The notes under the pieces: model-generated
Seen by the model: only the letters and a program-made list of their open reading frames with translations
What the model was told of the DNA's origin: nothing
Database searches by the model: none
Position numbers and translations under genes: made by a program
Shown here: positions 6,748 through 46,133 of the stretch, piece after piece
Layout: each line of letters begins with the position of its first letter
Position numbering within the stretch: position 1 is the first letter of the stretch
From: Candidatus Woesearchaeota archaeon
GTDB taxonomy: Archaea; Nanobdellota; Nanobdellia; SCGC-AAA011-G17; GW2011-AR17
Reading direction: 5' to 3'
Assembly: GCA_043818535.1 (NCBI GenBank)
Contig: JBDRFS010000057.1
Location: 1 to 53,977 of the forward strand
DNA: 53,977 bases

Positions 6748-7188
6748 ATGAGGCTATGGACATTACACCCAAAATGCCTTGACCACAAAGGATTAGTAGC
6801 TGTATGGAGGGAGGCATTGCTGGCAAAAAAGGTATTGCAGGGAAAAACAAAAGGCTACAGGCACCACCCCCAGCTTATAAGGTTCAGGAAAACAAGGCAT
6901 CCAATACGAGCAATTAACTCTTACCTCCAAGCAATATTAAAAGAGGCAAAGGCAAGAAACTACAAGTTTGACGAGACAAAAGCAAAGAAAGTAAAAGCAC
7001 AAAAGATTACAGCCACCACAGGGCAACTATCCTACGAATTCGGGCATCTAAAAAAGAAATTAAGGAAAAGGTCAAAGATAAGGCTAAAAGCAAACAAGAT
7101 AGAGCCCCACCCCTTATTCAAAATAAAAAAAGGGAAAATAGAGAATTGGGAGAAATATGGAAGAAATACTAACGCAGGAAGAGATTGA
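6748..7188 (+). CDS. Pyrimidine-dimer DNA glycosylase family protein (DenV-like)
   Basis: N-terminus MRLWTLHPKCLDHKGLVAVWREALLAKKVLQGKTKGYRHHPQLIRF is characteristic of this family. Confidence 0.7.
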   Translation: MRLWTLHPKCLDHKGLVAVWREALLAKKVLQGKTKGYRHHPQLIRFRKTRHPIRAINSYLQAILKEAKARNYKFDETKAKKVKAQKITATTGQLSYEFGHLKKKLRKRSKIRLKANKIEPHPLFKIKKGKIENWEKYGRNTNAGRD

Positions 7189-8607: not shown

Positions 8608-9411
8608 TCAGATAACCCCGGAATGGAAGAGCTCATACAAAAAAAGGATTATCTCAACAGCAATAAGGATTATAATAATCCACTCCAGCCTTGCCGCATG
8701 CTTGTCGCTCAGGCTCTGCATGAAAAGCCTGTAGTTGTCCTGGACAAAATGCATCTTTGACTCAAGGTTCTCAAAGCGCTCCTCAAGCTCAAACTCATCA
8801 ACAAGCCTTGAGTGCAAGGAATCAATGACAGGGCTTTCCCATGCGCTGTCCGGCTTCTCTAAAACCCCAATCCCAGAGACTATCTCTTTCATTATCCCGT
8901 TGTTCATTGCAATTGTCCGCATGATGTCCTTGCCAGACATCCTAAGCCCCCCGTATTTCTCCAAATGGGAGTTGAGCATGGAAAACCTCTCCTCAATAAT
9001 GTCGAACTCGTACTCATAGCTCTCCAGGGCAGCCGACTGCGCAAGCACCCTTGCTATTACCTTGAGCATCCCCGGCTCCAGCTTCCTCAGGACAACCATG
9101 GAACTTGTTACCACAAACTTCCTTGACTTGGAATCCTGCACTACCTCATAGTCTTCTGTTATGGCCTTTTCCTTTATGCTCAGGACAAGATTCTTTAGCC
9201 TATCAATTATTTCCCTTTCCTGCGCAGAGGATATGTCCAGAAGCACTATTGAGCCAAAGGAATAAACATAAAGAACACCTTTGCCCATGCTGTAGATGGC
9301 TGTCTCTTTTGTAAGCGATACCTCCTTGTAAGGCAACTTCCCCTTTATCTTTGAGATGGGGATGTTTTTTGCAACATACAATGCCTTAAGAGTGCACTTT
9401 TCCATAAGCAA
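8608..9411 (-). CDS. RMD1/DUF155-family protein with a C-terminal TM helix
   Basis: The YVYSFGSIVLLD segment, overall length and single C-terminal TM fit the DUF155 architecture. Confidence 0.55.
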   Translation of the reverse strand: MLMEKCTLKALYVAKNIPISKIKGKLPYKEVSLTKETAIYSMGKGVLYVYSFGSIVLLDISSAQEREIIDRLKNLVLSIKEKAITEDYEVVQDSKSRKFVVTSSMVVLRKLEPGMLKVIARVLAQSAALESYEYEFDIIEERFSMLNSHLEKYGGLRMSGKDIMRTIAMNNGIMKEIVSGIGVLEKPDSAWESPVIDSLHSRLVDEFELEERFENLESKMHFVQDNYRLFMQSLSDKHAARLEWIIIILIAVEIILFLYELFHSGVI

Positions 9412-22164: not shown

Positions 22165-22374
22165 CTAGATTATCTTCTTGCCCAGTTCAGTTATGTGGAT
22201 TACATTCACTGGGCAGGCTTCTGCTGCTTCCTTGTTGCATCCCAGATCATCGACTTCTCCATTCTTAAGCTGGGCCTTGCCATCACTCCCCTCTTCCCAT
22301 GAATCAGGGCAGATTGTCCAGCATGAGCCGCATGATATGCAGTTTTCCCTGTCATGCTCTATCTTGTATTTCAT
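22165..22374 (-). CDS. Small 4Fe-4S ferredoxin
   Basis: 69 aa with CISCGSCWTICP plus a distal CPVNVI. Confidence 0.75.
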   Translation of the reverse strand: MKYKIEHDRENCISCGSCWTICPDSWEEGSDGKAQLKNGEVDDLGCNKEAAEACPVNVIHITELGKKII

Positions 22375-22904
22375 GAAATCACCTTCATCAAATTGTTGAT
22401 CTTATAGTAAAAATTTTCCAAAGTATCATTGTTAATAAGGACATGCTGCGCCATCTCTATTGCTTTTTCCAAGCCCTTGTTTTTTATGTCCCTTTCATCC
22501 CTCGCAAAAAAACCCTCTTTGTCTTGTGGATCATCTGGGCTTCTCCTGTTATACCGGGTATCCTTATCCGCCGTTATTCCCACAAGGACAAACTCTTTCT
22601 CCCCATATATGCTTCGGGCCAAGTCAACCTCTTCCGGGCTCCTGAAGCCCAGTAAGACAATATCCTGCTTATAATCCCTTAAACCCTCCAAGGACCTCCT
22701 TGTAACTATGTCCATGCCAAATTGCTTTCTCCACTCATCTGCAAGCCTTGACATTCCGTCTTTTGTGGGCGTTTGGCCTGATTTCATTAATGAATCCCTT
22801 AGCACATCGCTTGTGTTTACTTTTTTATAGCCATAGTTCTTTACCAGGTAATCTGAAAAAACATCCTTGCCTGCCCTTGCCAAGGCCACTACTCCGACAA
22901 TCAT
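22371..22904 (-). CDS. P-loop nucleotide kinase (dNMP-kinase-like)
   Basis: The N-terminal VALARAGKD P-loop variant resembles phage-type deoxynucleotide monophosphate kinases. It has 4-nt overlaps with both neighbours (dCMP deaminase upstream, ferredoxin downstream). Confidence 0.5.
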   Translation of the reverse strand: MIVGVVALARAGKDVFSDYLVKNYGYKKVNTSDVLRDSLMKSGQTPTKDGMSRLADEWRKQFGMDIVTRRSLEGLRDYKQDIVLLGFRSPEEVDLARSIYGEKEFVLVGITADKDTRYNRRSPDDPQDKEGFFARDERDIKNKGLEKAIEMAQHVLINNDTLENFYYKINNLMKVIS

Positions 22905-23455
22905 TTCTTATCGCCCTTAATATTGGTTAGGAGTTCTGCCTTAAAGCTTTCATCAAACGTCTTGCCCACCCCTAAAAGTATGCCGTCAACCAGCACTTCC
23001 TCCACAGGCCTTCCAGAGTACTTTGCCATCTCTATTGAAGAATGCTTTAGGATTGAGTCGACCAGCTCTGAAGGGTAATCCCTGTAGAAGACTATTTTCT
23101 TAACGCCTGCATTAATTAATGAAGTCAGGCACCATTTGCAGGGTGTAATAACGACATAGATCGTTGAGCCTGTTGCTGATCCCCCGCCCATATAAGCCAA
23201 CTGGTTTATGCAGTTCTGTTCTGCATGGACATTGGGGCACATTTCTGACATGCCCTTTCCGATCTCTATGCCTTTTTCTCTTCTTACGCAGGATTCACAG
23301 TGGGGGTGGCCGGATGGGGGCCCATTATAGCCGGCAGCAATCACTCTCTTGTCCTTGACTAGGACTGCCCCTACTTTTCTGCTCTTACAAGGGCTTCTCT
23401 GGGCCACTAGGAAGGCCTGGGCCATGAAATACTCTTCCCATGTTGGTCTTGCCAT
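22901..23455 (-). CDS. dCMP (deoxycytidylate) deaminase
   Basis: Zinc motifs HAEQNCI and PCKWC at CDA-fold spacing. Confidence 0.85.
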   Translation of the reverse strand: MARPTWEEYFMAQAFLVAQRSPCKSRKVGAVLVKDKRVIAAGYNGPPSGHPHCESCVRREKGIEIGKGMSEMCPNVHAEQNCINQLAYMGGGSATGSTIYVVITPCKWCLTSLINAGVKKIVFYRDYPSELVDSILKHSSIEMAKYSGRPVEEVLVDGILLGVGKTFDESFKAELLTNIKGDKK

Positions 23456-23728
23456 GTTTTAGAGATTAAAGCTGGGAGTTTATTAAGATTTGTATAATGC
23501 ATGTTATATGTTGGCTTGGAGGGGCTGTCGCCTAGATGGGAAGTGCCATATTTGTCCCCAAAAGCTTAATTAACATCTTCTATGTATGTCATAATTGTCC
23601 TGGTAAGAGCCGGGGCCACATGCCAACCCATTATGGCCGCAGCAAGCGGTTATAAAATACAGCCGCAACACTTGGTAGCCTAGGCGAAGAGCTGAAGCGG
23701 CAGTGCTTACAAGAATGGGCTGGCTACT

Positions 23729-23816
23729 GAGGGCGGCTTCGCTCAACTACAATAATGGGCAATTCCATATTAATTGCAACAACAACATGAACAATAATGG
23801 CCGTTCCCGCGCAATG
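23729..23816 (+). repeat. DGR template repeat (TR), 88 nt
   Basis: GAGGGCGGCTTCGCTCAACTACAATAATGGGCAATTCCATATTAATTGCAACAACAACATGAACAATAATGGCCGTTCCCGCGCAATG. It is AAC/AAT-rich, with about 29 A by my count. It aligns without gaps to both VRs, and every mismatch falls on a TR adenine. Confidence 0.92.
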
Positions 23817-23844
23817 ACCCTGGCTCAGCCATGACTCATTCGCG

Positions 23845-25428
23845 ATGATGAGACACTCTTCCCTATGGAAAGGACTTTGCTCATACGAGAATTTGGAAGT
23901 GGCTTTCAACAATGCAAGGAAGCACAAGACACTTAAGCCCTATATTATTAATTTTGAAAAGAACCTGAAAGAGAACCTTCTTAAGCTGCAATTAGGGCTG
24001 TTGTTCCATATATATGGGCCTCAGCCATTAACCACATTTGTAATTCAAGACCCTAAGACTAGAAAGATAAGCAGGTCAGACTTCAGGGACAGGATAGTGC
24101 ATCATGCCTTGTGCAATGTAATTGAGCCCATATTCAATAAGAGTTTTATTTTTGATTCCTATGCAAACAGGATAGGAAAAGGTTGCCTTAAGGCAATAAA
24201 GAGATTTGGCAGTTTCAAGCGCAAAGTCTCAAGGAATAAAAACAGGAAATGTTTTGTGCTTAAGGCAGACATAAGGCATTATTTTGAAACAGTCAACCAT
24301 AATATCCTGCTCTATCTCATAAAAAAGAAGATTAAAGACAAGAATGTTCTGTGGCTGATCAAGATAATTCTCTCTAATTATAATTCCAAAAAAGAAGGCG
24401 TGGGAATGCCTCTTGGTAACCTTACCTCACAATTCTTTGCTAACCTTTACCTCAATGAACTAGACCAGTATGTTAAACATAAGCTCAAGATAAAATATTA
24501 CATAAGATATGTAGATGACTTTGTCATACTTCATACTTCTAAGGATGTTCTTGAAGAATATAAAAGAGAGATTAACAATTTCCTTAAAAGAAATCTTGAG
24601 TTGGAATTGCATCCAGACAAATCAAAAGTTCTTCCTTTAGAAGCAGGAATCTCATTCTTAGGCTTCAGGATATTTTACTACCACCTGCTTGTCAAGAAAA
24701 AGAATGTTGACAAATTTGAAAGGAAATTTCAGGACTTCAAGAAAAGATTTGCCAAAGAAGATATTGGGCGCGATGAAATAATTGACAGCTTTCAGGGCTG
24801 GATGGCATATATTATGCATGGCAATACTTACAAGTACAGAAGGCATCTCACAAAGCTATTGAATCATACTTTTCCAGCAGAAGTTCCACCCCAAAATAAA
24901 AAGCAGGAGAATCTTGAAAAAGCTGTAGCGGTTAGTGAGATGGAATTTTCGACCCAGAAAACCTTGAAGTTATTCAAAGAGGGTATGGGAATTTCACAAA
25001 TAGGAGAAAAAAGAGGGATTAAAGAAGCAACAGCATGGAAACATCTTGCAAAGCTTATAGAGCAAGGGCTGCTGAGTGTTTATGATGTTCTTCCCCAAAA
25101 GAAAATAAGGAAAATCCAGTTTAAGATTAAGAAAGAGGCCGAAAGTTTAGAAGTCATAAAAGCAAGGCTTGGCAACTCATTCTCTTATGCTGAAATCCGG
25201 TGTGTTATTGCATCTGTTAAACATAGAAACAGGAAGAGAAGCATAAGCAGTCTTGTGAAGTGGTACAGGAAGGCATATTGCTTAAGAAAATGTAGCGAGG
25301 ATGCTTCAACAAAAAGGGCTTGCTGGGCAAAGCTTAAGGAGTTTTCAGAAATTAATACATTTCTACAACTTCCAAGCCGGAAGTTCTTAAAATTGATTAG
25401 AAAAGATATGGATATTTGTTGCCTTTAG
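23845..25428 (+). CDS. DGR reverse transcriptase with a C-terminal HTH-type extension
   Basis: RT motifs are LGNLTSQ (the DGR-type I/LGxxxSQ), RYVDDFVIL (YxDD) and a thumb-like FQGWMAYIMHGNTY. About 170 extra C-terminal residues contain GISQIGEKRGIKEATAWKHLAKLIEQGLL, which resembles helicase-associated HTH (HTH_40-like) domains. Confidence 0.93.
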   Translation: MMRHSSLWKGLCSYENLEVAFNNARKHKTLKPYIINFEKNLKENLLKLQLGLLFHIYGPQPLTTFVIQDPKTRKISRSDFRDRIVHHALCNVIEPIFNKSFIFDSYANRIGKGCLKAIKRFGSFKRKVSRNKNRKCFVLKADIRHYFETVNHNILLYLIKKKIKDKNVLWLIKIILSNYNSKKEGVGMPLGNLTSQFFANLYLNELDQYVKHKLKIKYYIRYVDDFVILHTSKDVLEEYKREINNFLKRNLELELHPDKSKVLPLEAGISFLGFRIFYYHLLVKKKNVDKFERKFQDFKKRFAKEDIGRDEIIDSFQGWMAYIMHGNTYKYRRHLTKLLNHTFPAEVPPQNKKQENLEKAVAVSEMEFSTQKTLKLFKEGMGISQIGEKRGIKEATAWKHLAKLIEQGLLSVYDVLPQKKIRKIQFKIKKEAESLEVIKARLGNSFSYAEIRCVIASVKHRNRKRSISSLVKWYRKAYCLRKCSEDASTKRACWAKLKEFSEINTFLQLPSRKFLKLIRKDMDICCL

Positions 25429-25620
25429 AATTGGAAAATGAATTAATTTTGGCAGCCGCAATATAGGTGGATAGCTTTAGCTTAGAAGATTTGCTTAGGG
25501 TGGAGCGAATGGGGCGCTGCGTGCTAAGCCCTGCTGGAGCTTAATAGTTTTCCGGGCATTTCTGCGTAGCCATTCAAGAAAAAATTTGCGACAGCCAAGC
25601 CCCCCTCACACATCCCACCC

Positions 25621-27210
25621 TTAGGCGGCTTCGCCGCTGGCGGTCGCTTCGCTCCCTAGCACTGCGCGGGAACGGCCATCATTGCCCAAGTTGAGGTTGC
25701 AACTAATACGGAATAGCCCACTATCGTAGTAGAGCGAAGCCGCCCTCTCACGCATTTCACCCCTACTAGTATAAGTATCATCTGAAAAAGGTGGAGTCCA
25801 AACCTTAATGTCTTTTTTAGGCTTGTCACTAATTACTTCAAAAACATCAGTTATTTCTTCTTTAGTATCTTCAGTGCCTAACAAAGCATGGAAAAAATAC
25901 AAGCCCTTGTCCTGGATTAAAACAGTTTTCAAAGGAATATCCAAATATTCAGGTATATCCAAGTCAAGAGGCTGCTGCTCCCTGTCAGACCTATAGTTGT
26001 GGATTATCCTTGAGTTTTCATTATCAGAATTATACTGCAATCTAGTACTGCTCAGCAGCAACCTAGCCTTAAAATCCTTTCTCACAGAATCCAATAAGGT
26101 CCGATTAGCATCCTTATCAGCAGCTATCTGCTTAAACACTTGGTAAAGCTCTGCCATTGAAGGGAACCGCCTTCCATCCTTGACATCGTTCCAGTATTCT
26201 ATCCATTGGTTTTGGGTTTTATATTTTCCATTTTCAGCAGCAACATCATCAAGTGTCAAGATAACAGATGGACTCTTAACGGGTTTTGCAGGCTTATCAT
26301 CTATTACATCTATGCCTAACTTCTCTTTCATCTCTTCAACAAATTTCTTGCCAAAATTGTAATGAGACTTTATGAAACCAGGCTTGATATTCTTCTCTAT
26401 CTTTTCATTAAGCTTCTCAACAGCATGATTAGCAAAAAAGTCAAATATATTCACATCAATTATGGCATCGCCTGTTTCCCTTAAAAGAACTCTTGTTTTC
26501 TTTTCACCTTTTTCTTCAACTACAGTAACATAAGGAAATTTGCCTTTAATTTTAGAATAAACATTCTGCGGGAGGTCAACATAAAGTGCGCCAAGCTCCT
26601 TAAGCCTCTCAATAAATTCAGGGCTTCCAAGATTATTGCCGCTTAATGCTATCCCCAAACCATTGCCAAGCTGGTCCATATAGCCGTTAAACAAATAGTT
26701 CATTACAAAATCTGTCACAATAGGGTCATCCAAGCCAGATTCTGATAAAAGGCTGTTGAAAGGAAGGATTGTATCATAAACTTCCTCCTTGTCATCTCCT
26801 GCATAAAGATATTTTAATCCCTGGAATATGTGATAAGACTGGCTTGTTGAAGTAAAGTTATCCTTTAATAAAAGAATAGTTGCCCTATCAAGAGAGTTTT
26901 TAAAATTAGGCTGCCTTTTCTCCCAAAAGCTGTCCTGAATATCATCATATCTTAAAAGCAAAGGGTCACGGCCAACATACTGCATAGATTTTGAAGCGTG
27001 CTGATTGGCATTAAACTGCTTCAACTGAGGCTCAAGGCATGAAGCCAACTCTGAACTAAAGAGCAAATAATCTAACTTAATACCATCATCCTGCTCCATA
27101 TTACTTAGACATTCTCTCCTTAAAGCTTCCATAGTTTTAACTATCTTAACTAGATTCTTCTTAACATCAGTATCCTTAACCTCTACTGTAAGTTTGTTGG
27201 GAGCCTTCAT
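25621..27210 (-). CDS. DGR variable protein 1 (C-terminal VR, putative C-type-lectin-fold ligand-binding domain)
   Basis: 529 aa. The C-terminus ...RAASLYYDSGLFRISCNLNLGNDGRSRAVLGSEATASGEAA* contains VR1. The last ~190 aa are homologous to the N-terminal ~190 aa of variable protein 2. There is no signal peptide or TM segment. Confidence 0.9.
   Translation of the reverse strand: MKAPNKLTVEVKDTDVKKNLVKIVKTMEALRRECLSNMEQDDGIKLDYLLFSSELASCLEPQLKQFNANQHASKSMQYVGRDPLLLRYDDIQDSFWEKRQPNFKNSLDRATILLLKDNFTSTSQSYHIFQGLKYLYAGDDKEEVYDTILPFNSLLSESGLDDPIVTDFVMNYLFNGYMDQLGNGLGIALSGNNLGSPEFIERLKELGALYVDLPQNVYSKIKGKFPYVTVVEEKGEKKTRVLLRETGDAIIDVNIFDFFANHAVEKLNEKIEKNIKPGFIKSHYNFGKKFVEEMKEKLGIDVIDDKPAKPVKSPSVILTLDDVAAENGKYKTQNQWIEYWNDVKDGRRFPSMAELYQVFKQIAADKDANRTLLDSVRKDFKARLLLSSTRLQYNSDNENSRIIHNYRSDREQQPLDLDIPEYLDIPLKTVLIQDKGLYFFHALLGTEDTKEEITDVFEVISDKPKKDIKVWTPPFSDDTYTSRGEMRERAASLYYDSGLFRISCNLNLGNDGRSRAVLGSEATASGEAA
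25660..25747 (-). repeat. DGR variable repeat 1 (VR1)
   Basis: The reverse complement aligns to the TR over 88 nt with 13 mismatches, all at TR adenines (hand alignment). Confidence 0.92.
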
Positions 27211-28187
27211 TTTTCATCACCAGCTTTAATATCTTCAAATGCTTCAACATCGTCAAGTGCTTCACCTTTTGAGTAAAGACTAAGATGAGCATAAACAGGG
27301 TGAAGGAACTTTTCAACAGCTTCAAGCTTCTCTGCTGTGCTTCTGTCCTTGCATAATATCTTGGCAACTCTGGAATCAAGGTTTGGAACTTCTCCGCTGT
27401 CAAAAACTGCTGACAGCACATACCTCTTGCCATAAAAGCAAAATATGGCTGTATACTTATTGAAGTTTCCTATTTCCTGAAGATTGCTGAAGCACACAGA
27501 CTTGGAAGTCTTGTCTATTTGTGATTCAAGATTAAAAGGCAAGCCTGAATTTTTTTTGCGTCCACCAACCCGCCCTTTGGCGGCTTCGCCGCTGGCGGTC
27601 GCTTCGCTCCCTTGCACCGCGCGGGAACGGCCATAATTGTTCATGATGTTGTAGCAATAAATATGGAATAGCCCATTATTGCAGTCGAGCGAAGCCGCCC
27701 TCACAGGATTGCTATTTCTACTGCCTTGAGAAGGTGTCCAAATCCTAAGGTTATCCTTATTCTTGTTTCCAAGCTTTTCAAGAGCATCCATAATAGCCTC
27801 GCCCTCATCCTTAGTAAGGAAAAGCCCCTGAAAGAATCTCAAGCCTTCATCAGTATTAATAACATCCTTAATAAAGTTACCAGAACTATAGTCCGGAACC
27901 AAAATATTTCTCTTCACAGGCTCAATAACAGTACTACCATAATAATCAATAATTTCAGCATTAAGGCTTGTTGGGCTATAAATTATTCTAGTGCTTGTCA
28001 TTACCCAGTTCTCAAAATCTTCCTGAACGCTTCTCAATAATGCTTCATCACCAGACTTCCCAAGAATATAATAATCCGCAACAGAAGCCATTACTTTTCC
28101 TGCTTCATTATGCTTAGGAATCCAATTGTTCTGAGTAAGATATAAAATTTTGCTTTCTTCCATCCAAGGCAGACTATCCAAAGTCAT
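27207..28187 (-). CDS. DGR variable protein 2 (VR followed by a 123-aa C-terminal extension)
   Basis: 326 aa containing ...RAASLDCNNGLFHIYCYNIMNNYGRSRAVQGSEATASGEAA-KGRVGG... The codon equivalent to the VP1 stop (TAA) is AAA here. There are 4-nt overlaps with both neighbours and no signal peptide. Confidence 0.85.
   Translation of the reverse strand: MTLDSLPWMEESKILYLTQNNWIPKHNEAGKVMASVADYYILGKSGDEALLRSVQEDFENWVMTSTRIIYSPTSLNAEIIDYYGSTVIEPVKRNILVPDYSSGNFIKDVINTDEGLRFFQGLFLTKDEGEAIMDALEKLGNKNKDNLRIWTPSQGSRNSNPVRAASLDCNNGLFHIYCYNIMNNYGRSRAVQGSEATASGEAAKGRVGGRKKNSGLPFNLESQIDKTSKSVCFSNLQEIGNFNKYTAIFCFYGKRYVLSAVFDSGEVPNLDSRVAKILCKDRSTAEKLEAVEKFLHPVYAHLSLYSKGEALDDVEAFEDIKAGDEK
27615..27702 (-). 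repeat. DGR variable repeat 2 (VR2)
   Basis: The reverse complement aligns to the TR over 88 nt with 9 mismatches, all at TR adenines (hand alignment). Confidence 0.92.
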
Positions 28188-29113
28188 TTGTCCACCTCCA
28201 AAGGCTGAATTAAAAGCTGCGCCTCCGGCTTCTCTTTAGCAATATGTGCAAGATTAACATACATCCTAGTTAAGTTAGAATCATGCCTTCCAACTTTATC
28301 ATTCTTCTCCACCCTATAATCCTCAATCTCCTTTTCCAGCTTCTTAACATCAGTATCCAAAAACTTCTCCGTCTTTTGATGGGTAACCTTCTTCCCAACC
28401 TTATAATCCCTGTCATGCCTGTACTCAATATTATAATCAACATTGCTTTCATGCCTATACTCTTCTTTAATCTCATAATGGCTTCCAGCCCAGCATGTAA
28501 TCTGGTTAAATTCCTGAGCAGTAAGCTGTTCCTCTGTCCTCTCCTTTACAGTAACATGCTTCAAAACAGAATCGACACCATACTTCCTCACTTCATCAGG
28601 ATTCTTGTCCAATGCAATAGCAGCAATAGCCTTTGCCCTATCAGAAACAAACTTGTCATCAAGATCCAGTTCCTTTAAAGCATCCCCCTTAAATTCAGCC
28701 CTGCCAGGATCATCTTCATCCCCTTTAGTGAGCTTATTGATAAGATAAGTTTCATAAGTGTTTCTTGCAAGCACCGCCCAGTTAACGCCCTGAACACTTG
28801 TCCCATTATCCTCAACCATGCCATGCTCAAACTCTTTGACTTCATCGTAAAAATCAGCAATCTCATCCAGGGCATCATCAACATCACCCTCACCGGGATT
28901 AGCCAGATAGAACAATAAATTCTGTGGAACTAAAGTCCTGAAAGCCTTGCCCTTGTAAGGCATGTTTATCAAAGCATAGCCAAAAGGGACAGCATCAAAA
29001 TCATTTTCAACAATAATAAACTTTTTGCCCTGCCTTACAGCTTCAGCTACGTCACTGCTAGGTGTTCTCCTTAAAATAACCGCCTTCTGCCTTAACTTCT
29101 GCTCCAGGCTCAT
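28184..29113 (-). CDS. Hypothetical protein of the DGR-target operon
   Basis: 309-aa acidic ORF with 4-nt overlaps on both sides. No family recognised. Confidence 0.6.
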   Translation of the reverse strand: MSLEQKLRQKAVILRRTPSSDVAEAVRQGKKFIIVENDFDAVPFGYALINMPYKGKAFRTLVPQNLLFYLANPGEGDVDDALDEIADFYDEVKEFEHGMVEDNGTSVQGVNWAVLARNTYETYLINKLTKGDEDDPGRAEFKGDALKELDLDDKFVSDRAKAIAAIALDKNPDEVRKYGVDSVLKHVTVKERTEEQLTAQEFNQITCWAGSHYEIKEEYRHESNVDYNIEYRHDRDYKVGKKVTHQKTEKFLDTDVKKLEKEIEDYRVEKNDKVGRHDSNLTRMYVNLAHIAKEKPEAQLLIQPLEVDK

Positions 29114-30666
29114 TTTTCACCATCCGCCATAGATGTTATTGCCTTATATCCCATAACGCTGTCTCCTATATCCTTAATAACACCCCCATATTTAGCCTCA
29201 TCATTGTTGATTATGCCCTTAACTAAAGTCTTCAAAACCCTAACATTCAATTCCTGCCCATAATCTTTAGCTTGCTTGCACGCATAAAATATGTCCCTGC
29301 AAGACAAATGATCGTTGCATTTGACAAGCTCCCTAGCATCAACTTCAGGAGCATAAAGCTTCCAGATTGCTTCCTGCTCTTCTGCTGAAGGCATGCCAAA
29401 ATACAGCTTATGGATAAACCTGTCAATAAAGGGGGCCCTAAGGAAATCAGGATTATTGTCAGTGCCAATAATGTAAACTCCTTCTGGCGGCCTGCTCAAA
29501 ACAGACTGCATATAGCCGGTCTGGCTGTCTTTGTGGCTTAGGACTCCTTTTCTTTCAACAAAAGAGCTTATCTCATCAAAGCACAGCACGCAAGGGGAGA
29601 GCTGCTTGGCCCTCTTAATGACTTTTTCAGTCCTGTCCTTGCTCTCGCCAACCCATTTGCTTTCAAGTTCAGAGCCTTTAAGCAGGATAAAATTATAGCC
29701 ATATTGGCCGGCCAAAGCTTCTGCTGTAACAGTCTTGCCAGTGCCTTTGGGGCCGTAAAAAAGCATTACAGAGCCATTGCTTCTCTCAACAATGGATTCA
29801 AGCAAGGCCTTATGATAGTCATATCCTGCTAAATCACTAAAAGTTACCGCAGGCTCGATAAAAGGCATGTCCCTTATGGCAGAAGGCTTGGTTTTCTTCA
29901 GGCCATATTCCAAGTCCATATACTCAAGCTCATTCCTTTTCTCCCTTTTGGCCTTAGTGAAAGCCCTGTTAAGGACCTGCTTCAAGTCCCTGCCAACATA
30001 CCCATAGCTTACATCAGCAAGCCTCTTCAAATCTCCAACCCTAACCTTAAACTGGTGGTTGCCTTTCCTGTCAGCATGAATGCCAAGTATCTTGTATCTG
30101 CCTTCCCTGTCAGGAGGCATGAATTCTATATCCTCAGCAAACCTTGCCCTTAAAGCCTCATCCATGCTTTCAGGCCTGTTGGAAGTGGCAAGGACAAATA
30201 TCCCGCTATTGTCCTCAACACCGTCAAGCTGTGAAAGAAACAGGGTAAATGCCTGATACTGTGCTGGATCAACTATCTGCCCTCTTGAAGACATGCCGTC
30301 AATTTCGTCAATAAAGGCTATAAGCTTCTTGTCCTTCTGCAAAGCTACTCTCAATTCATTAAAAACCTGCTCTGCCATGCCACTTTTCACTAAAGCTGTT
30401 ACATCATAAAAAGGGATATTAAGCTCAGAAGCAAGAACCATGGCGCCCAAAGTCTTGCCAGTTCCAGGAGGGCCAGAAAGCAAATAATTCCTTGCACCCA
30501 TTTCAGTGCCAAAATCCTCAATATTTGTTATAACAGTTTTCAGGTCTTCAAAATCCTCTTTTAATTTGGGGTGAACATAATAATCTTCACTTTTAACCCT
30601 TAATTCAAGTGGCTTAAGCTGGCTTTTGCCTAAGTCAAGCCCTTTCTCTTTATTGACAGTTATCAT
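29110..30666 (-). CDS. Tandem (two-domain) classic-clade AAA+ ATPase, Cdc48/FtsH-like without an N-domain
   Basis: D1 has Walker A GPPGTGKT and Walker B IAFIDEIDG. D2 has Walker A GPKGTGKT and Walker B VLCFDEISS. Confidence 0.9.
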   Translation of the reverse strand: MITVNKEKGLDLGKSQLKPLELRVKSEDYYVHPKLKEDFEDLKTVITNIEDFGTEMGARNYLLSGPPGTGKTLGAMVLASELNIPFYDVTALVKSGMAEQVFNELRVALQKDKKLIAFIDEIDGMSSRGQIVDPAQYQAFTLFLSQLDGVEDNSGIFVLATSNRPESMDEALRARFAEDIEFMPPDREGRYKILGIHADRKGNHQFKVRVGDLKRLADVSYGYVGRDLKQVLNRAFTKAKREKRNELEYMDLEYGLKKTKPSAIRDMPFIEPAVTFSDLAGYDYHKALLESIVERSNGSVMLFYGPKGTGKTVTAEALAGQYGYNFILLKGSELESKWVGESKDRTEKVIKRAKQLSPCVLCFDEISSFVERKGVLSHKDSQTGYMQSVLSRPPEGVYIIGTDNNPDFLRAPFIDRFIHKLYFGMPSAEEQEAIWKLYAPEVDARELVKCNDHLSCRDIFYACKQAKDYGQELNVRVLKTLVKGIINNDEAKYGGVIKDIGDSVMGYKAITSMADGEK

Positions 30667-31426
30667 TTTCTCCTCCTAAAAATTCGCATTTGCTTGCTTC
30701 ACCCTTAGGGTTTATATACTTTTTCAGTCCAAAATCAGCAAGGCACTTTTTGGCCTTCCTAATGCCATAAGCCTGCTCCAAGGCATAACAGTTATTTGGG
30801 CGTATCAAAGGTGACTGTATCATTCCCTTGTGCTGCAGGCTTTCAGCCAATAGCAGGCCCCTTAAATTATCAACCTTCCCTTCACTTAAAAGCTCCACAT
30901 CTTTGCCGCAGCCCACTGGAAAAACAAGATTGACACGGACAGGCAGGCTTAAGCTGTAAGACAAGCCAAGGATTTCCGGAACATTGTCAAAATTATCCCC
31001 ATATATTGAAGATGTTAGAATCACATTATATTCTTTTTTCATTCTCTCTATATTCTTAACCACTTTAGTAAAAAAAGGCCTTTTGGTAATATGTTCATAA
31101 AGTTCAGAGCTGGCTGCCGGAAGTGAAACCTGCAAGGTTATTTTATCTTTTACTCTTGATTCCAAGCCAAGCAAGCCTTCAGGAATAAACACCGCATTTG
31201 TGGAAACATTAACATCCCTGCCATTACCTGCTATTTGCAACAAAACATCCAGAATCTGCCTGTGCATGAAAGGCTCCCCGCCGCCAATCTCAACAGTATC
31301 AAAATTAGGATTAGACTTGACAATATCCATAATCTTTTCTGCTGAAAGCTCTGCATCATTCTGCTGATAGCAAAATGCGCATTCAAGATTGCATGTGCTG
31401 TTTATGTCTATTGTCAGGATCTTCAT
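30650..31426 (-). CDS. Radical SAM enzyme (small, no recognisable SPASM/accessory domain)
   Basis: Contains CNLECAFCY (CxxxCxxC) at residues about 12-19 and a GGGEP SAM-binding motif. It is the first cistron of the operon and overlaps the AAA+ gene by 17 nt. Confidence 0.85.
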   Translation of the reverse strand: MKILTIDINSTCNLECAFCYQQNDAELSAEKIMDIVKSNPNFDTVEIGGGEPFMHRQILDVLLQIAGNGRDVNVSTNAVFIPEGLLGLESRVKDKITLQVSLPAASSELYEHITKRPFFTKVVKNIERMKKEYNVILTSSIYGDNFDNVPEILGLSYSLSLPVRVNLVFPVGCGKDVELLSEGKVDNLRGLLLAESLQHKGMIQSPLIRPNNCYALEQAYGIRKAKKCLADFGLKKYINPKGEASKCEFLGGENDNCQ

Positions 31427-31579: not shown

Positions 31580-33442
31580 TTACTTGATCTTCCTCAGAAT
31601 ATGCATCTTGCCTTTCCACACAAGAGCCTGCCCAAGAACTTCCTTTATTGTGGATACAGGTATTATCTTAATGCCTTTCAGCTTCTCCTTGCTTATGACC
31701 AAGTCACCCTCGTTTGCCCGGGGGATTATTACTCTTTTTATGCCAGCATCTATTGCTGCCTCAACCTTTGCAGTAACTCCTCCAACAGCAAGAACCCCCC
31801 CCCTGACGGACAATGACCCAGTCATTGCAGTATCCTGCCTGACAGGGATGTTCTTCAATGCCGAGATGATTGATGTTGCAACAGCTATTGAAGCTGAGTC
31901 CCCCTCCACGCCCTCATAGGTCTGTATGAATTGGGTGAATATGTCATACTTCTCTCTCAAATCTTCTCCAAAGTATTTGAGGATAATTGCAGAAACGTTC
32001 TTTATGGCCTCTTTTGCTATTTGTCCCAGCTTTCCAGTGGCTATGAACTCAGTCTTCTTGCCTCCAGGCGTAACCTCAGACTCTATTGGAAGGACTATGC
32101 CTGAATATGCTGAGCCGCCCCCTATAACTGCCAGCCCATTAACCCTGCCCACCATGTTGCCGGTCGTCACTATTACCTCATATTTCTTCTTGTTTTCTAT
32201 GTAGCGGTCAGCCAGCTGCTGTTCTAATGGCCTAGCCAGCTTCTTTGCCTTAAACACGTGTTCCTTAGTGACAATCTTCTTGCCATCTTCTAATGCTAAG
32301 TCACCGGCCGCCCTCACCAATCCCCCTAGCTCCCTCAGCCTGACAGTAAGCTTGCCCTTTGTTGAAGCCATTTTTCTTGCATACTCTATTATTGCATCTA
32401 CAGCATCCCGGTCAAAATGGGGGATCTTTCCGTCCTTAGTTACTTCCTGAGCAACGAATATGGCTAGCTTATCCCTGTTCTCAAGAGTGTTGTCCATAAG
32501 GGTGTTCATGTATATCTCATAACCATAGCCCCTTATCCTTGAACGTAATGCAGGGTGCATTTTCTGTATTGTTTCCAAGTTACCTGCCGCTACCATGATA
32601 AAGGCTGCAGGAACAGGCTCAGACCTTGTCATGGCTCCGGAAGAGCGCTCAGACTGCCCTGTAATAGGATACTTCTTCTCTTGCATTACAGACAACAGCT
32701 CTTGCTGGGAATGCGGGTTTAATGTTGCCACCTCATCTATGAAAAGTACGCCACCATTTGCCCTGTGAATCATGCCAGGGATAAGGCGCAGGTAAGCCGG
32801 AGTTCCTAGACCGCCAGACTGCAGTGGATCATGAAGTACATCCCCTAGAAGGCTCCCAGCATGCGCCCCGGTAGCATCTATAAAAGGGGCTTTCTTCACC
32901 TTTGAATTATCTATCAAAAGTTTTGGCACTTTAGCATTTGAAGATTGGTTAGTCCTCCTGTTGATGTTTATGAATAGCATAAAGCCAAGAACAAATACCA
33001 CGCTTGTAATCATGGAGGCAGCATACACAATTGGGCTGTCAAAAGGGAATATCTTTCTGGAATAGAAATAATAAGGGAGCAAAGTGGCTATGACCACGAG
33101 TATGAGCATAAGGATGTTGATGTTCCTTAAAGAGCCAACAGCCTGCAGCTTGGCCCTTGTGACAATTTCCAAGCCTTGTCCACGGGGCATTGTCCTTACA
33201 AGCGGAATATTGTCGTCCGCAAGGTTAGGAAAAGCCAGAACATCTAGGAGCCTCTCATTTGGCAATAATTCAGCCAATCCCAGCCCAAGCATGCTCTTGC
33301 CAGTTCCAGGGTCTCCTATGAGGAGGACGTTTCTTCTCTGCCTGGCGGCCTTCTTGATTATGTTGACAGCTTCCTCCTGGCCAATTACCTGGTCAACAAC
33401 CCTTTTTGATACCTTTATGTCTTTAGTTGTAGTAAATTTCAT
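31580..33442 (-). CDS. lon: Archaeal membrane-bound Lon protease (LonB)
   Basis: Contains GDPGTGKS (Walker A), two TM helices inserted in the ATPase domain and the proteolytic site [11 protein letters not shown]. Confidence 0.93.
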
Positions 33443-34094
33443 TGCAGATAGTTTATGTTATAAGGCATCAGATATTAAAAGCTTACTGTTGTAAGTTCCT
33501 TCTGGTTAGCAGCTGGTTTGTATTGCGAAAACTCTATTTCTGGCTCTTTTAAAATTATAAGTTCAGGCCGAAGAGACCGCTGCTTCAGCTCGGCGATGAA
33601 AGGCCTCTGCCGCAAAGCGGCACAATGTTGCCTGTTTTTCTTACCTCTTTAGAGTGAGGCTCAGCCAGAAACCCGAACTGTTTCTTCTTGGAAGAATGGC
33701 TCAATACTCCGAAAATTAGCTACTTGACACCACTTGACATGTGTGCGCGCAGCACTTATAAAGTCTTTTTCTTTTTAATCAAGAGTAGTGAGATATTGTA
33801 ACTCAAAAGCGTGGGTAGTGCTTACAATATTGATGCAGGCAGGATAGCAATCATGGTCCAAAGCTAAGGCTTTTGCTCCTTGTGGAACCGTGTTCCTTTT
33901 TTGGGGCAGGAGGCTATGGAAAGATGCTCATTGCACCGCAATGCTTTGTGATGGGTGGGTGCGACCTGAATCAACAGGTCATTAGGATGACCGCGCCTTA
34001 GATGCGGATGATCTCACTTAAAAGTGGGGGAGCGCATAACTCAACGGCTATACTGAGGCACCGTGCCTTTAGGCCGTGAGAGGTCACTTTGTTC

Positions 34095-34365
34095 CAACCA
34101 ACCCTTGAGCGGCTCCGCCGCTGGCGGTCGCTACGCCCCCTTCACTGCGTGGGAAAGGCCATTACTGTTCATGCTAAAGTATGCAATAAATATGGAATTG
34201 CTCACCATTGTAGTTGAGCGAGGCCGCCCTCTCAGACCTTTCAGCCTGCGCCATATAGATATCATTTGAAAAATGTGGTGTCCAAAGCTTAATGTCCTTT
34301 TTTAGCTTGCCACCAATTACCTCAAAAAATTTAATAATCCCATAAACAGAAAACAAAAGAAGCAA
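34095..34365 (-). pseudogene. Decayed 3' fragment of a DGR target gene (VR3 remnant at 34133-34221)
   Basis: It encodes ...KKDIKLWTPHFSNDIYMAQAERSERAASLNYNGEQFHIYCIL*, homologous to the VP1 tail. Relative to the TR, the VR has a 1-nt insertion, an in-frame stop and several non-adenine substitutions. Confidence 0.75.
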
Positions 34366-34387
34366 AACGTGCTGCTAATAAAAAAAA
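34339..34387 (-). terminator. Recurring T-rich 3'-end element (copy C)
   Basis: The plus strand reads CCCATAAACAGAAAACAAAAGAAGCAAAACGTGCTGCTAATAAAAAAAA and abuts the stop at 34388. It is about 85-90 percent identical to copy D at 46083-46133. Confidence 0.3.
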
Positions 34388-34651
34388 TCAAACAATGTCT
34401 TCTTCAGCCACTACTACAAAGTCCCCAACAGCAATCACAGCGCTATAGGGCACCAAAAGCTGGCCGGTCTTGTCCTTCTCAAGGTCAAGGTTATCAACAT
34501 AAGAAGTCATTCCCTTAAGCACGACATTTATCAGCTCACCAGTTCTTACTTCAAAAGCGAGATTTCCTACCTCGCCTAGCTTCTTTCCTGACTTTGTGAC
34601 AACTACCTTACCTATAAGCTGCCTTGAATATTTCTTCTCTTCTTCTGGCAT
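34388..34651 (-). CDS. PRC-barrel domain protein
   Basis: 87 aa containing GKVVVTKSGKKLGEVGNLAFEVRTGELINVVL...LLVPYSAVIAVGDFVVV. Confidence 0.62.
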   Translation of the reverse strand: MPEEEKKYSRQLIGKVVVTKSGKKLGEVGNLAFEVRTGELINVVLKGMTSYVDNLDLEKDKTGQLLVPYSAVIAVGDFVVVAEEDIV

Positions 34652-46064: not shown

Positions 46065-46082
46065 ACAACAAAACTCAACAAC

Positions 46083-46133
46083 CCCATAAACAACAACAAA
46101 AGAAGCAAAACGTGCTGCCAACAAAAAATTATA
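46083..46133 (-). terminator. Recurring T-rich 3'-end element (copy D)
   Basis: The plus strand reads CCCATAAACAACAACAAAAGAAGCAAAACGTGCTGCCAACAAAAAATTATA and abuts the PolD large-subunit stop at 46134. Confidence 0.3.

What the first reader, a model, noticed from the sequence alone, without database searches (positions are those of the whole stretch)
23729..27702. Apparently active diversity-generating retroelement: one TR, one RT, two intact VRs with adenine-only mismatches
- An 88-nt segment (23729-23816, plus strand, 28 nt upstream of the RT ATG) aligns without gaps to the reverse complements of 25660-25747 and 27615-27702.
- By hand alignment VR1 differs at 13 positions and VR2 at 9. Every difference is at an adenine of the 23729 copy, and I found no mismatch at a C, G or T.
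- Example codons: TR AAC TAC AAT AAT GGG CAA; VR1 TAC TAC GAT AGT GGG CTA; VR2 GAC TGC AAT AAT GGG CTA.
- The donor copy is built of AAC/AAT codons and is not inside a long ORF. The recipient copies form the 3' parts of real genes.
- The adjacent ORF carries the DGR-type RT motif LGNLTSQ plus YVDD.
- Adenine-specific TR-to-VR mutagenic retrohoming is the defining signature of DGRs. DGRs are known in small-genome archaea, so the class is not new, but this is a clean instance with two targets.
Basis: partly seen in the sequence, partly recalled or inferred. Interest (0 to 1): 0.9.

Follow-up and report, generated by a model that had tools for sequence, protein, structure and literature searches.

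The report
Intact archaeal diversity-generating retroelement, two targets
This is a real, intact diversity-generating retroelement in the chromosome of a tiny Woesearchaeota archaeon; it rewrites the tips of two paralogous proteins at adenine-coded positions and belongs to an already described archaeal lineage of such elements.

Summary
TR 23729-23816(+) aligns without gaps to VR1 25660-25747(-) and VR2 27615-27702(-). They differ at 13 and 9 positions, and all 22 are TR adenines (chance about 1e-12).

The RT (23845-25428) is closest to the Bordetella phage DGR RT among solved structures. 57 of its 80 genomic relatives carry adenine-biased TR/VR pairs. Both VRs are followed by a conserved IMH and a GC hairpin with a GAA triloop; the TR is not.

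The window is a chromosomal contig of a Candidatus Woesearchaeota MAG. The targets are 41% identical to a target protein of the nanoarchaeal DGRs described by Paul et al. 2015, so this is a new member of a known kind.

- A third, decayed VR remnant lies at 34143-34231(-).
- VR2 is internal to its gene, and the C-terminal extension after it is conserved.
- The Rfam motif RT-16 (23598-23732) abuts the TR 5' end here and in 12 of 12 relatives with a called TR.
- No Avd gene was found in the 54 kb.
- The RT carries a basic C-terminal HTH_40 domain, common in this lineage.
- The targets sit in an operon (radical SAM, tandem AAA+, orphan p309, T2, T1) that recurs with DGRs in at least four other DPANN genomes.

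Current activity was not shown, because no reads were available.

The parts
23560..23574 (+). Candidate archaeal BRE/TATA promoter (AAAAGCTTAATTAAC), centred about 28 nt upstream of the RT-16 5' end. Inferred only.
   Evidence: Read from the sequence. TATA-like boxes of the ACTTTTTAAA type lie 25-32 nt upstream of the RT-16 start in most of 15 loci by eye (about 13).
23598..23732 (+). RT-16 RNA motif (Rfam RF03019): a structured RNA directly 5' of the TR, overlapping it by 4 nt.
   Evidence: 84.1 bits against a gathering score of 50, E 9e-12, full-length match. The same motif ends within 4 nt of the TR start in 11 of 12 related TR units with a called TR, and 21 nt away in the twelfth.
23729..23816 (+). 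Template repeat (TR), 88 nt with 29 adenines. In the target frame it reads RAASLNYNNGQFHINCNNNMNNNGRSRAM. The invariant GC-rich stretch GGCCGTTCCCGCGC (23799-23812) plus AATG forms IMH*.
   Evidence: 27 of the 29 A are at codon positions 1 or 2. No codon can mutate to a stop. Up to about 5e15 peptide variants are possible.
23817..23844 (+). 28-nt TR-RT spacer. A motif of the form GAAUAG(C)C, small hairpin, (G/A)GAC(A) recurs 3' of the TR in 13 loci; here the GAGACA falls on RT codons 3-4. It is a candidate analogue of the BPP-1 spacer (speculative).
   Evidence: RNAalifold found no consensus pairs, so only sequence conservation is shown.
23845..25428 (+). Reverse transcriptase, 527 aa. The RVT_1 domain covers aa 71-276 and includes LGNLTSQ and YVDD. 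A basic C-terminal extension (pI 9.9) holds an HTH_40 domain at aa 369-455.
   Evidence: The best solved relative is 8ub7_A (E 3.9e-42). All 120 listed homologue clusters carry PF00078 plus PF14493.
25621..27210 (-). Target gene T1 (529 aa; NCBI ABIB71_04830). It has an N-terminal domain of about 315 aa and a C-terminal variable domain of about 200 aa.
   Evidence: It is 41% identical to the DUSEL4 nanoarchaeal target P0003.
25660..25747 (-). VR1: 13 differences from the TR, all at TR adenines. Its IMH is GGCCGTTCCCGCGCAGTG (25677-25660).
25625..25637 (-). Hairpin after VR1, GCGGC-GAA-GCCGC, inside the coding sequence and 23 nt past the VR end. It is part of a 47-nt block that is 46/47 identical to the block after VR2.
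   Evidence: Paul et al. 2015 describe GRA-triloop hairpins of this kind in nanoarchaeal DGRs.
27207..28187 (-). Target gene T2 (326 aa). The variable domain spans aa about 16-203 and is 39% identical to that of T1. A conserved C-terminal extension of about 120 aa follows.
27615..27702 (-). VR2: 9 differences from the TR, all at TR adenines. Its IMH is GGCCGTTCCCGCGCGGTG.
27580..27592 (-). Hairpin after VR2, GCGGC-GAA-GCCGC.
28184..29113 (-). p309, an orphan protein (NCBI ABIB71_04840) whose reading frame overlaps those of T2 and the AAA+ gene. It is a conserved partner of the targets.
   Evidence: 81 homologue clusters; every one that carries a source name is Woesearchaeota, Nanoarchaeota/Nanoarchaeia or 'archaeon', and none has a Pfam domain. 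It is syntenic in L083, L087, L088 and L089. The AF2 model (pLDDT 81) has no PDB fold match.
29110..30666 (-). Tandem AAA+ ATPase (CDC48-like, two AAA domains), 518 aa.
   Evidence: It is 57-75% identical to the syntenic genes in L083, L087, L088 and L089.
30650..31426 (-). Small radical SAM enzyme, 258 aa, first gene of the operon.
   Evidence: It is syntenic in L083, L087, L088 and L089.
34093..34341 (-). Pseudogene fragment of a T1-like target (last 77 or so codons, two in-frame stops). It holds a decayed VR3 at 34143-34231 with 13 mismatches to the TR (8 at A, 5 at non-A) and a 1-nt insertion. A GCGGC-GGA-GCCGC hairpin lies at 34109-34121.

Best explanation
This is a complete chromosomal diversity-generating retroelement (DGR) of the DPANN archaeal lineage. 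It has recently rewritten two paralogous target genes.

Proposed mechanism, step by step:
1. Inferred: an RNA is transcribed from a TATA-like promoter near 23565. It starts with the structured RT-16 domain (23598-23732), continues through the 88-nt TR, and probably runs on into the RT mRNA.
2. Inferred by homology to the BPP-1 system: the RT copies the TR into cDNA and inserts random nucleotides opposite template adenines.
3. Anatomy shown, process inferred: the cDNA replaces the homologous VR in T1 and T2. It is directed by the GC-rich IMH at the VR 3' end and by the GAA-triloop GC hairpin 23 nt downstream. Both are present after each VR and absent after the TR.
4. Shown: the outcome is adenine-only TR/VR differences at 18 of the 29 TR adenines. 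These recode up to about 17 residues on the last beta-strands of a roughly 200-aa variable domain, and no stop codon can be created.
5. Inferred: no Avd gene is present in the window, so the RT-16 RNA, possibly together with the basic HTH_40 tail of the RT, may provide the scaffold that Avd provides in BPP-1.
6. Shown as synteny only: T1 and T2 are soluble proteins with no predicted membrane segment, encoded in a conserved operon with p309, a tandem AAA+ ATPase and a radical SAM enzyme. The function of that system is unknown.
For: - 22 of 22 mismatches fall on TR adenines, p about 1e-12. There are only three clean copies in the window and none in shuffles.
- The RT's best solved relative is 8ub7_A (E 3.9e-42), against 5e-25 or weaker for group II and retron RTs. 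The motifs LGNLTSQ and YVDD are present.
- 57 of 80 RT relatives have adenine-biased TR/VR pairs.
- The TR codons are AAY-rich, A sits at codon positions 1 or 2 in 27 of 29 cases, and no codon can become a stop.
- A 47-nt block after the VR is 46/47 identical between paralogues that are only 39% identical as proteins and 30-60% identical as DNA elsewhere.
- GC hairpins with GAA, GGA or AAA triloops follow the VRs of most relatives, as Paul et al. 2015 described.
- Internal control: the decayed VR3 has 5 non-adenine mismatches and an indel, while the two intact VRs have none.
- Sister lineage: L001 and L002 share an identical RT and TR. In the 8 kb from the RT onwards, 36 of 39 differences lie in the three VRs.
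- RT-16 abuts the TR in 12 of 12 relatives with a called TR.
- Three searches found no Avd in the window.
- The operon is syntenic, and its T1/T2-like genes are DGR targets, in L083/L084, L087 and L088. L089 shares the operon but is cut off.
Against: - There is no read-level or population data for this element. An A-to-N pattern scan of JGI metagenomes found nothing, and exact-protein look-ups did not find the contig. Current activity is therefore not shown.
- Only 54 kb of the genome is visible, so an Avd gene elsewhere cannot be excluded. The related SAG contig L081 has a PF05635 protein 2 kb from its RT.
- HTH_40 is absent from several related RTs that still have RT-16 or clean VRs (L081, L083, L087, L088). 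It is therefore not required for this type of DGR.
- The C-type-lectin fold of the variable domain has only weak support.
- I built no formal RT phylogeny.
Confidence: 0.88

Rival explanations
1. Fossil DGR. The element was active in the past and produced the adenine-only pattern, but it no longer retrohomes. The VRs are now ordinary sequence under selection.
For: No population data for this element. One target copy (VR3) has already decayed to a pseudogene, so targets in this genome can be abandoned.
Against: The RT ORF is full length and aligns end to end with more than 100 homologue clusters. RT-16, TR, IMH and hairpins are all intact. There are no non-adenine mismatches in 176 aligned positions across the two VRs, whereas the abandoned copy has 5 plus an indel.
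Confidence: 0.1
2. A canonical Avd-dependent DGR whose avd gene lies outside the 54-kb window. On this reading RT-16 and HTH_40 play no Avd-like role.
For: Only part of the genome is visible. L081 has a PF05635 (Avd-family) protein 2 kb downstream of its RT. L024, an archaeal relative, has a recognisable Avd.
Against: Neither a profile of 22 CPR Avd proteins, nor the L081 PF05635 protein, nor Pfam on the small ORFs found an Avd in the window or within 10 kb of the RT in L001-L010. Wu et al. 2018 report that 26% of DGRs lack avd and that profile searches did not find it elsewhere in those genomes. In the CPR relatives the avd gene sits between TR and RT, where this element has only 28 nt.
Confidence: 0.25
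3. Not a DGR. The three repeats are copies of a paralogous gene segment homogenised by gene conversion, and the RT is an unrelated group II intron or retron-type enzyme.
For: NCBIfam's best RT match is the group II intron maturase model, at 161 bits and below its cut-off of 300. JGI annotates homologues as 'retron-type reverse transcriptase'.
Against: An adenine-only mismatch pattern has a chance of about 1e-12. A>T and A>C changes exclude deamination. The donor copy is non-coding and lies next to the RT. No group II intron RNA was found by Rfam. The RT is much closer to the DGR RT than to group II or retron RTs, and its relatives carry TR/VR pairs.
Confidence: 0.01

Closest known systems
DUSEL4 Nanoarchaeota DGRs (Paul et al. 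2015, Nat Commun 6:6585, PMC4372165); here loci L081 and L082 from SAG assemblies GCA_000402515.1 and GCA_000380905.1
   Same: - RT core 60% identical.
- Target T1 41% identical to the 515-aa target, and T2 37% identical to the 326-aa gene immediately upstream, so the T2-T1 gene pair is conserved.
- RT-16 lies directly 5' of the TR.
- The IMH carries G where IMH* has AA (GG in VR2, AG in VR1).
- A GRA-triloop hairpin lies inside the target coding sequence.
- The targets are orphan proteins without Pfam domains.
   Different: - Here the TR-RT unit is convergent with the targets and downstream of them, instead of target, then TR, then RT on one strand.
- The RT carries a 180-aa HTH_40 extension.
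- Both VRs are clean, whereas the L081 T2-like VR has 3 non-A mismatches.
- The targets are embedded in the radical SAM, AAA+, p309 operon, which is absent from the L081 neighbourhood.
Bordetella phage BPP-1 DGR (mtd-avd-TR-brt), the prototype
   Same: - Adenine-specific TR-to-VR information flow.
- RT family (E 3.9e-42 to 8ub7_A).
- GC-rich IMH and a downstream hairpin.
- AAY-rich TR that cannot create stop codons.
   Different: - No avd gene.
- The structured RNA (RT-16) is 5' of the TR. In BPP-1 the RT-10 or spacer structure lies between TR and brt (Weinberg et al. 2017).
- The TR-RT spacer is only 28 nt.
- The hairpin has a triloop, not a GRNA tetraloop.
- The element is chromosomal, with two cellular targets that lack predicted membrane segments, not a phage tail fibre.
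- The variable domain resembles C-type lectins only weakly.
CPR/Patescibacteria DGRs, architecture B3 of Wu et al. 2018 (TR-(avd)-RT)
   Same: The RT is about 37-45% identical. Targets are short orphan proteins in genome-reduced organisms.
   Different: CPR relatives carry a 110-140-aa avd gene on the reverse strand in the roughly 430 nt between TR and RT. This element has neither that space nor the gene.
Architecture A (TR-RT, no accessory gene) and architecture C (HRDC accessory) DGRs of Wu et al. 2018
   Same: Like architecture A1, the core is TR-RT with no accessory ORF. Like architecture C, a nucleic-acid-binding helical domain other than Avd is associated with the RT.
   Different: Here the extra domain is HTH_40 (PF14493), fused to the RT and basic (pI 9.9). 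HRDC proteins are separate genes with a near-neutral pI. I did not test for homology between HTH_40 and HRDC.

Membership tests
Diversity-generating retroelement (DGR) | TR/VR repeat pair whose differences fall almost only on TR adenines | tested here: met
   13/13 and 9/9 mismatches are at A, with no gaps. p is about 1e-12.
Diversity-generating retroelement (DGR) | Adjacent RT of the DGR clade with the [LIV]GxxxSQ motif and YxDD | tested here: met
   LGNLTSQ and YVDD are present. The best PDB relative is the DGR RT 8ub7_A at E 3.9e-42, against 5e-25 for group II RTs. 57 of 80 relatives have adenine-biased TR/VR pairs. I built no formal tree.
Diversity-generating retroelement (DGR) | IMH at the VR 3' end differing from IMH* at the TR 3' end, which sets the direction of transfer | tested here: met
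   After the shared GGCCGTTCCCGCGC, VR1 continues AGTGCTAGGG, VR2 continues GGTGCAAGGG and the TR continues AATGACCCTG. Homology ends there.
Diversity-generating retroelement (DGR) | GC-rich hairpin or cruciform shortly downstream of the VR | tested here: met
   GCGGC-GAA-GCCGC lies at 25625-25637 and 27580-27592 and is absent after the TR. ViennaRNA with DNA parameters does not pick it as the minimum-energy fold of the 91-nt flank, so the hairpin rests on sequence and conservation across relatives.
Diversity-generating retroelement (DGR) | TR codon design that avoids nonsense codons (AAY codons) | tested here: met
   None of the 29 codons can become a stop. There are 11 AAY codons.
Diversity-generating retroelement (DGR) | Accessory variability determinant (Avd); present in about 74% of DGRs, so not universal | tested here: not met
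   No hit in the window with a profile of 22 CPR Avd proteins, with the L081 PF05635 protein, or with Pfam on the small ORFs. The rest of the genome was not available.
Diversity-generating retroelement (DGR) | Variable residues displayed on a C-type lectin (or Ig-like) fold | tested here: inconclusive
   The AF2 model of T1 residues 315-529 has pLDDT 96.4. Foldseek gives no hit at E<=1e-3. The only recurring fold among weak hits is C-type lectin or DUF1566: Mincle and MCL at probability 0.5-0.66 and TM 0.42-0.49; a viral C-type lectin at probability 0.84.
Diversity-generating retroelement (DGR) | Ongoing VR diversification in the population | not testable with these tools
   No reads were available. 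The pattern scan of metagenome contigs found nothing. In the sister lineage, 36 of 39 differences between L001 and L002 fall in VRs.
Rfam RF03019 (RT-16 RNA) | Covariance-model score at or above the curated gathering score of 50 bits | tested here: met
   84.1 bits, covering model positions 1-158 of 158.
DPANN archaeal DGR lineage (Paul et al. 2015, 2017) | Host is a DPANN archaeon; RT and targets are homologous to described nanoarchaeal DGR components; hairpins have GRA triloops | tested here: met
   NCBI names the source Candidatus Woesearchaeota archaeon. The window has an archaeal gene set: Orc1/Cdc6, PolD, LonB. Homology to L081 is shown, and the cis features match those.

The most novel reading that the evidence does not exclude
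In this Woesearchaeota/Nanoarchaeota lineage the DGR may work without Avd. On this reading the template RNA carries its own structured 5' domain, the so far function-less Rfam motif RT-16. That domain is transcribed from a dedicated TATA promoter and is fused directly to the TR. In a large subfamily the RT has also acquired a basic HTH_40 tail.

The retroelement would then not be a free-standing diversifier of arbitrary genes. It would be a fixed component of a conserved system of soluble proteins: a radical SAM enzyme, a tandem AAA+ ATPase, orphan p309, and one to three T1/T2 paralogues. Only the binding-domain tips of the paralogues are hypermutated. In two genomes the system sits next to type-IV-secretion-like genes, which hints at a host-interaction or conflict role.
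Probability: 0.35. Interest if true: 0.65.

Novelty: new member of a known kind. Interest (0 to 1): 0.42.

Why it matters
As a DGR it is a clean textbook case in a DPANN archaeon, which adds to a lineage described in 2015 and 2017 but does not change the picture.

What could matter is the anatomy around it.

- It gives a precise genomic role to an orphan Rfam motif. RT-16 appears to be the 5' domain of the DGR template RNA.
- It offers a compact, accessory-gene-free cassette (RT-16, TR, RT, about 1.9 kb) for testing how Avd-independent mutagenic retrohoming works. Wu et al. 2018 raised that question explicitly.
- It shows that the hypervariable proteins belong to a conserved operon with a CDC48-like AAA+ ATPase, a radical SAM enzyme and an orphan protein. 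That makes the biology of DGR targets in host-dependent archaea experimentally approachable.

Tried and rejected
- **Exact-protein look-ups.** Look-ups of the RT (two start codons) and of the AAA+ protein found no contig, so no second copy of this population could be compared.
- **Metagenome scan.** A scan of JGI metagenome contigs with the TR pattern (A set to N) gave 0 hits.
- **Avd search.** I first looked on the wrong strand in CPR loci and found only spurious ORFs. I then built a profile from 22 reverse-strand CPR Avds. It found an Avd only in L024 and nothing in the window. Pfam on the small ORFs also found none.
- **Sequence searches with the targets and p309.** PDB searches gave nothing. 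Pfam on 100 members of the target family gave no family.
- **Foldseek.** The variable domain gave no significant match in PDB or BFVD, only weak lectin-like hits. p309 gave nothing.
- **PADLOC.** Only generic radical SAM (pVip, N-terminal part) and AAA (IetA) similarity appeared. I do not take this as evidence for a defence system.
- **Inverted repeat around the VRs.** The 11-nt perfect inverted repeat bracketing each intact VR looked like a possible cis element, but it is not conserved in any relative. I report it as unexplained and do not count it as part of the mechanism.
- **TR-RT spacer.** RNAalifold found no consensus structure.
- **Region 33400-34420.** No Rfam hit at E<=1. Fold z-scores are not significant. 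There is no homology to the T2 extension.
- **Literature.** Paul et al. 2017 (Nat Microbiol) could not be read. Whether it already reports the operon or the RT-16 link is unknown to me.


Full report
**1.

- A computed alignment shows that 23729-23816(+) matches the reverse complements of 25660-25747 and 27615-27702 without gaps.
- There are 13 and 9 differences. All 22 fall on adenines of the 23729 copy (A>G 12, A>T 9, A>C 1).
- With 29 A in 88 nt, the hypergeometric chance of this is 5.7e-8 and 1.8e-5, about 1e-12 jointly.
- The presence of A>T and A>C changes rules out a deamination-type process.
- A pattern of the TR with every A replaced by N finds only these three copies in the window and none in 100 shuffles.

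**2.

- VR2 is not at the 3' end of its gene.
  - T1 (25621-27210, 529 aa) stops at TAA, 37 nt after VR1. T2 (27207-28187, 326 aa) has AAA at the same place and continues for 123 codons.
  - The extension is real. It is conserved at 34-42% identity in the T2-like genes of L081, L083, L087 and L088, and at the C-terminus of P0006.
- There is a third VR-like copy at 34143-34231(-).
  - It lies inside a 77-codon pseudogene fragment of a T1-like gene (34093-34341, two in-frame stops).
  - It has 13 mismatches to the TR, 5 of them at non-adenines, plus a 1-nt insertion.
  - It serves as an internal control. An abandoned copy drifts at all bases, whereas the two intact VRs show no non-adenine difference in 176 aligned positions.

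**3. The source organism**

- T1, p309 and the RT are exact matches to NCBI proteins of a Candidatus Woesearchaeota archaeon MAG, on a contig of 53,977 bp.
- The surrounding genes are chromosomal archaeal housekeeping genes: Orc1/Cdc6, PolD DP1 and DP2 (with an intein), SerRS, ArgRS, LonB, GlmS, CofD and H+-PPase.
- No viral or plasmid signature was seen.

**4. The RT**

- The 527-aa ORF has an RVT_1 domain (aa 71-276) and a C-terminal HTH_40 domain (aa 369-455).
- Its best solved relative is the 328-aa chain 8ub7_A (E 3.9e-42, 148 bits). I recognise the aligned sequence as Bordetella phage bRT; that identification is from my own knowledge.
- Group II intron and retron RTs score 5e-25 or weaker. 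NCBIfam has no DGR model, and the group II model scores below its cut-off.
- Among 80 relatives in GTDB species genomes, the closest are Woesearchaeota and Nanoarchaeota (48-65% identity), followed by CPR bacteria (about 40%). My adenine-bias caller finds TR/VR pairs in 57 of these 80 loci.
- The HTH_40 fusion is not peculiar to this contig. All 120 listed homologue clusters (50-60% identity, 86-100% coverage, about 99% for most) carry PF00078 plus PF14493, and all named ones are DPANN archaea.
- The extension is basic, with pI 9.9.

**5. Cis elements**

- The TR and VRs share GGCCGTTCCCGCGC. After it VR1 reads AGTG, VR2 reads GGTG and the TR reads AATG, and homology ends there.
- Both VRs continue with a 47-nt block that is 46/47 identical between T1 and T2. 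The two genes are otherwise 30-60% identical at the DNA level.
- The block contains GCGGC-GAA-GCCGC (25625-25637 and 27580-27592).
- Relatives have GC stems of 5-7 bp with GAA, GGA or AAA triloops 10-30 nt after their VRs.
- Paul et al. 2015 described exactly these features for nanoarchaeal DGRs: IMH TGGGGT against IMH* TGGAAT, and GRA triloop hairpins inside the target genes.

**6. The template RNA**

- Rfam finds RT-16 (RF03019) at 23598-23732 with 84 bits against a gathering score of 50.
- In the relatives with a called TR (L004, L005, L006, L008, L052, L061, L070, L081, L085 twice, L086), the RT-16 match ends within 4 nt of the TR start. The one exception is 21 nt away.
- L085 has two RT-16+TR units for a single RT.
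- A TATA-like box lies 25-32 nt upstream of the RT-16 5' end in most of 15 loci by eye (about 13), including 23560-23574 here.
- Weinberg et al. 2017 defined RT-1 to RT-19 as motifs near RT genes. They linked only RT-10 to a DGR and speculated about the others.
- I found no paper in the searchable library that links RT-16 to DGRs.
- 3' of the TR, a motif of the form GAAUAG(C)C, small hairpin, (G/A)GAC(A) recurs, but RNAalifold finds no consensus structure.

**7. Accessory protein**

- CPR relatives carry avd on the reverse strand between TR and RT (architecture B3 of Wu et al. 2018). Here that gap is only 28 nt.
- A profile of 22 such Avds, the PF05635 protein of L081, and Pfam on the small ORFs all find nothing in the window or near the RT in L001-L010.
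- The cassette is therefore of the TR-RT type (architecture A).
- An avd gene elsewhere in the genome cannot be excluded.
- HTH_40 cannot be a general Avd substitute, because L081, L083, L087 and L088 have short RTs without it.

**8. The targets**

- T1 and T2 share a C-terminal domain of about 200 aa at 39% identity.
- A profile of this domain finds 719 cluster representatives at E<=1e-3, mostly proteins of 200-300 aa. None has a Pfam family.
- The AF2 model of T1 residues 315-529 is confident (pLDDT 96.4). The VR-encoded residues lie on the last four beta-strands.
- Foldseek gives no significant match. The only recurring fold among weak hits is C-type lectin or DUF1566, so the lectin-fold criterion is inconclusive.
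- The TR in frame reads RAASLNYNNGQFHINCNNNMNNNGRSRAM. 27 of its 29 A are at codon positions 1 or 2. No stop codon can arise, and up to about 5e15 peptides are possible.
- T1, T2, p309, the AAA+ protein and the radical SAM protein have no hydrophobic segment.

**9. The operon**

- The order on the minus strand is radical SAM (30650-31426), tandem AAA+ (29110-30666), p309 (28184-29113), T2, T1. Adjacent reading frames overlap by 4-17 nt.
- The same module, with DGR-targeted T1/T2 paralogues and a DGR RT, occurs in three other places:
  - L083/L084, with three clean VRs, one of them upstream of the radical SAM gene;
  - L087;
  - L088, with three VRs.
- L089 shares the radical SAM, AAA+, p309 and T2 genes but is cut off before any RT.
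- Identities to the window across these loci are AAA+ 57-75%, p309 52-66% and radical SAM 39-65%.
- p309 has 81 homologue clusters; those with a source name are DPANN archaea or simply 'archaeon'. Its model has no fold match in the PDB.
- In L087 and L088 the module lies next to TrbC/T4SS-pilin, TrbL and VirB4/TraC-like genes. The window has none of these.
- PADLOC hits are generic.

**10. Activity**

- Direct evidence is lacking.
- The indirect evidence has three parts:
  - All parts of the element are intact.
  - The two clean VRs contrast with the decayed VR3.
  - L001 and L002 are two MAGs with an RT-HTH_40 element that share 8.9 kb at 99% identity. From the RT onwards, 36 of 39 differences fall within the three VRs, while the RT and TR are identical.

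**11. Verdict**

- This is a genuine, intact DGR that was very probably active recently.
- Its RT, targets and cis elements place it in the DPANN lineage already described, so it is a new member of a known kind.
- Four aspects were new to me and not found in the literature I could read: the tight RT-16/TR unit with its own promoter, the absence of Avd, the widespread RT-HTH_40 fusion, and the conserved radical SAM, AAA+, p309, T2/T1 system.
- These make it a good entry point for studying Avd-independent retrohoming and the function of DGR targets in host-dependent archaea. They remain inferences from synteny and motif positions.

Noticed in passing
window 34093-34341 (-), VR-like part 34143-34231: Third, decayed target fragment with a VR-like copy. 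It has 13 mismatches to the TR (5 at non-adenines), a 1-nt insertion and two in-frame stops. The GCGGC-GGA-GCCGC hairpin is still present at 34109-34121.
   Followed up: yes
window 25624-25634 / 25734-25744 and 27579-27589 / 27689-27699: An 11-nt perfect inverted repeat (GGCGGCTTCGC / GCGAAGCCGCC) brackets each intact VR, pairing the VR 5' end with the hairpin region after the VR. It is lost in the decayed VR3 and is not conserved in any relative, so its meaning is unclear.
   Followed up: yes
window 34326-34385 and 46070-46128: A near-identical element of about 55 nt lies immediately 3' of two unrelated minus-strand genes (PRC-barrel protein and PolD DP2). It may be a shared terminator or 3'-UTR element.
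   Followed up: partly
window 33475-34090: About 600 nt with no ORF and a GC content of 0.45-0.53, against 0.40 for the window. It lies between the LonB start and the target pseudogene. There is no Rfam hit, no significant folding z-score and no homology to the T2 extension.
   Followed up: partly
window 46134-51101 (-): The DNA polymerase D large subunit (DP2) gene is interrupted by an intein with a LAGLIDADG domain. Orc1/Cdc6 and DP1 lie next to it, so the window may be near a replication origin.
   Followed up: no
L085 7561-7809 and 8918-9161: Two separate RT-16+TR units, each with its own VR (6769-6853 and 8651-8723), serve a single RT-HTH_40 gene. This supports RT-16+TR as a modular template unit.
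   Followed up: partly
L087 11935-17533; L088 1-5089: In two DPANN genomes the radical SAM, AAA+, p309, target and DGR module lies directly next to TrbC/T4SS-pilin, TrbL and VirB4/TraC-like genes.
   Followed up: no
L001 9104-17086 vs L002: Two MAGs from different studies share an identical RT-HTH_40 and TR. Over 8 kb they differ almost only in their three VRs (36 of 39 differences). In these loci the TR is downstream of the RT and on the opposite strand.
   Followed up: yes
window 22901-23455 (-) and 22371-22904 (-): A dCMP/cytidine deaminase gene and a small P-loop kinase-like gene lie immediately upstream of the RT-16/TR promoter region on the opposite strand. I found no evidence linking them to the DGR.
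   Followed up: no
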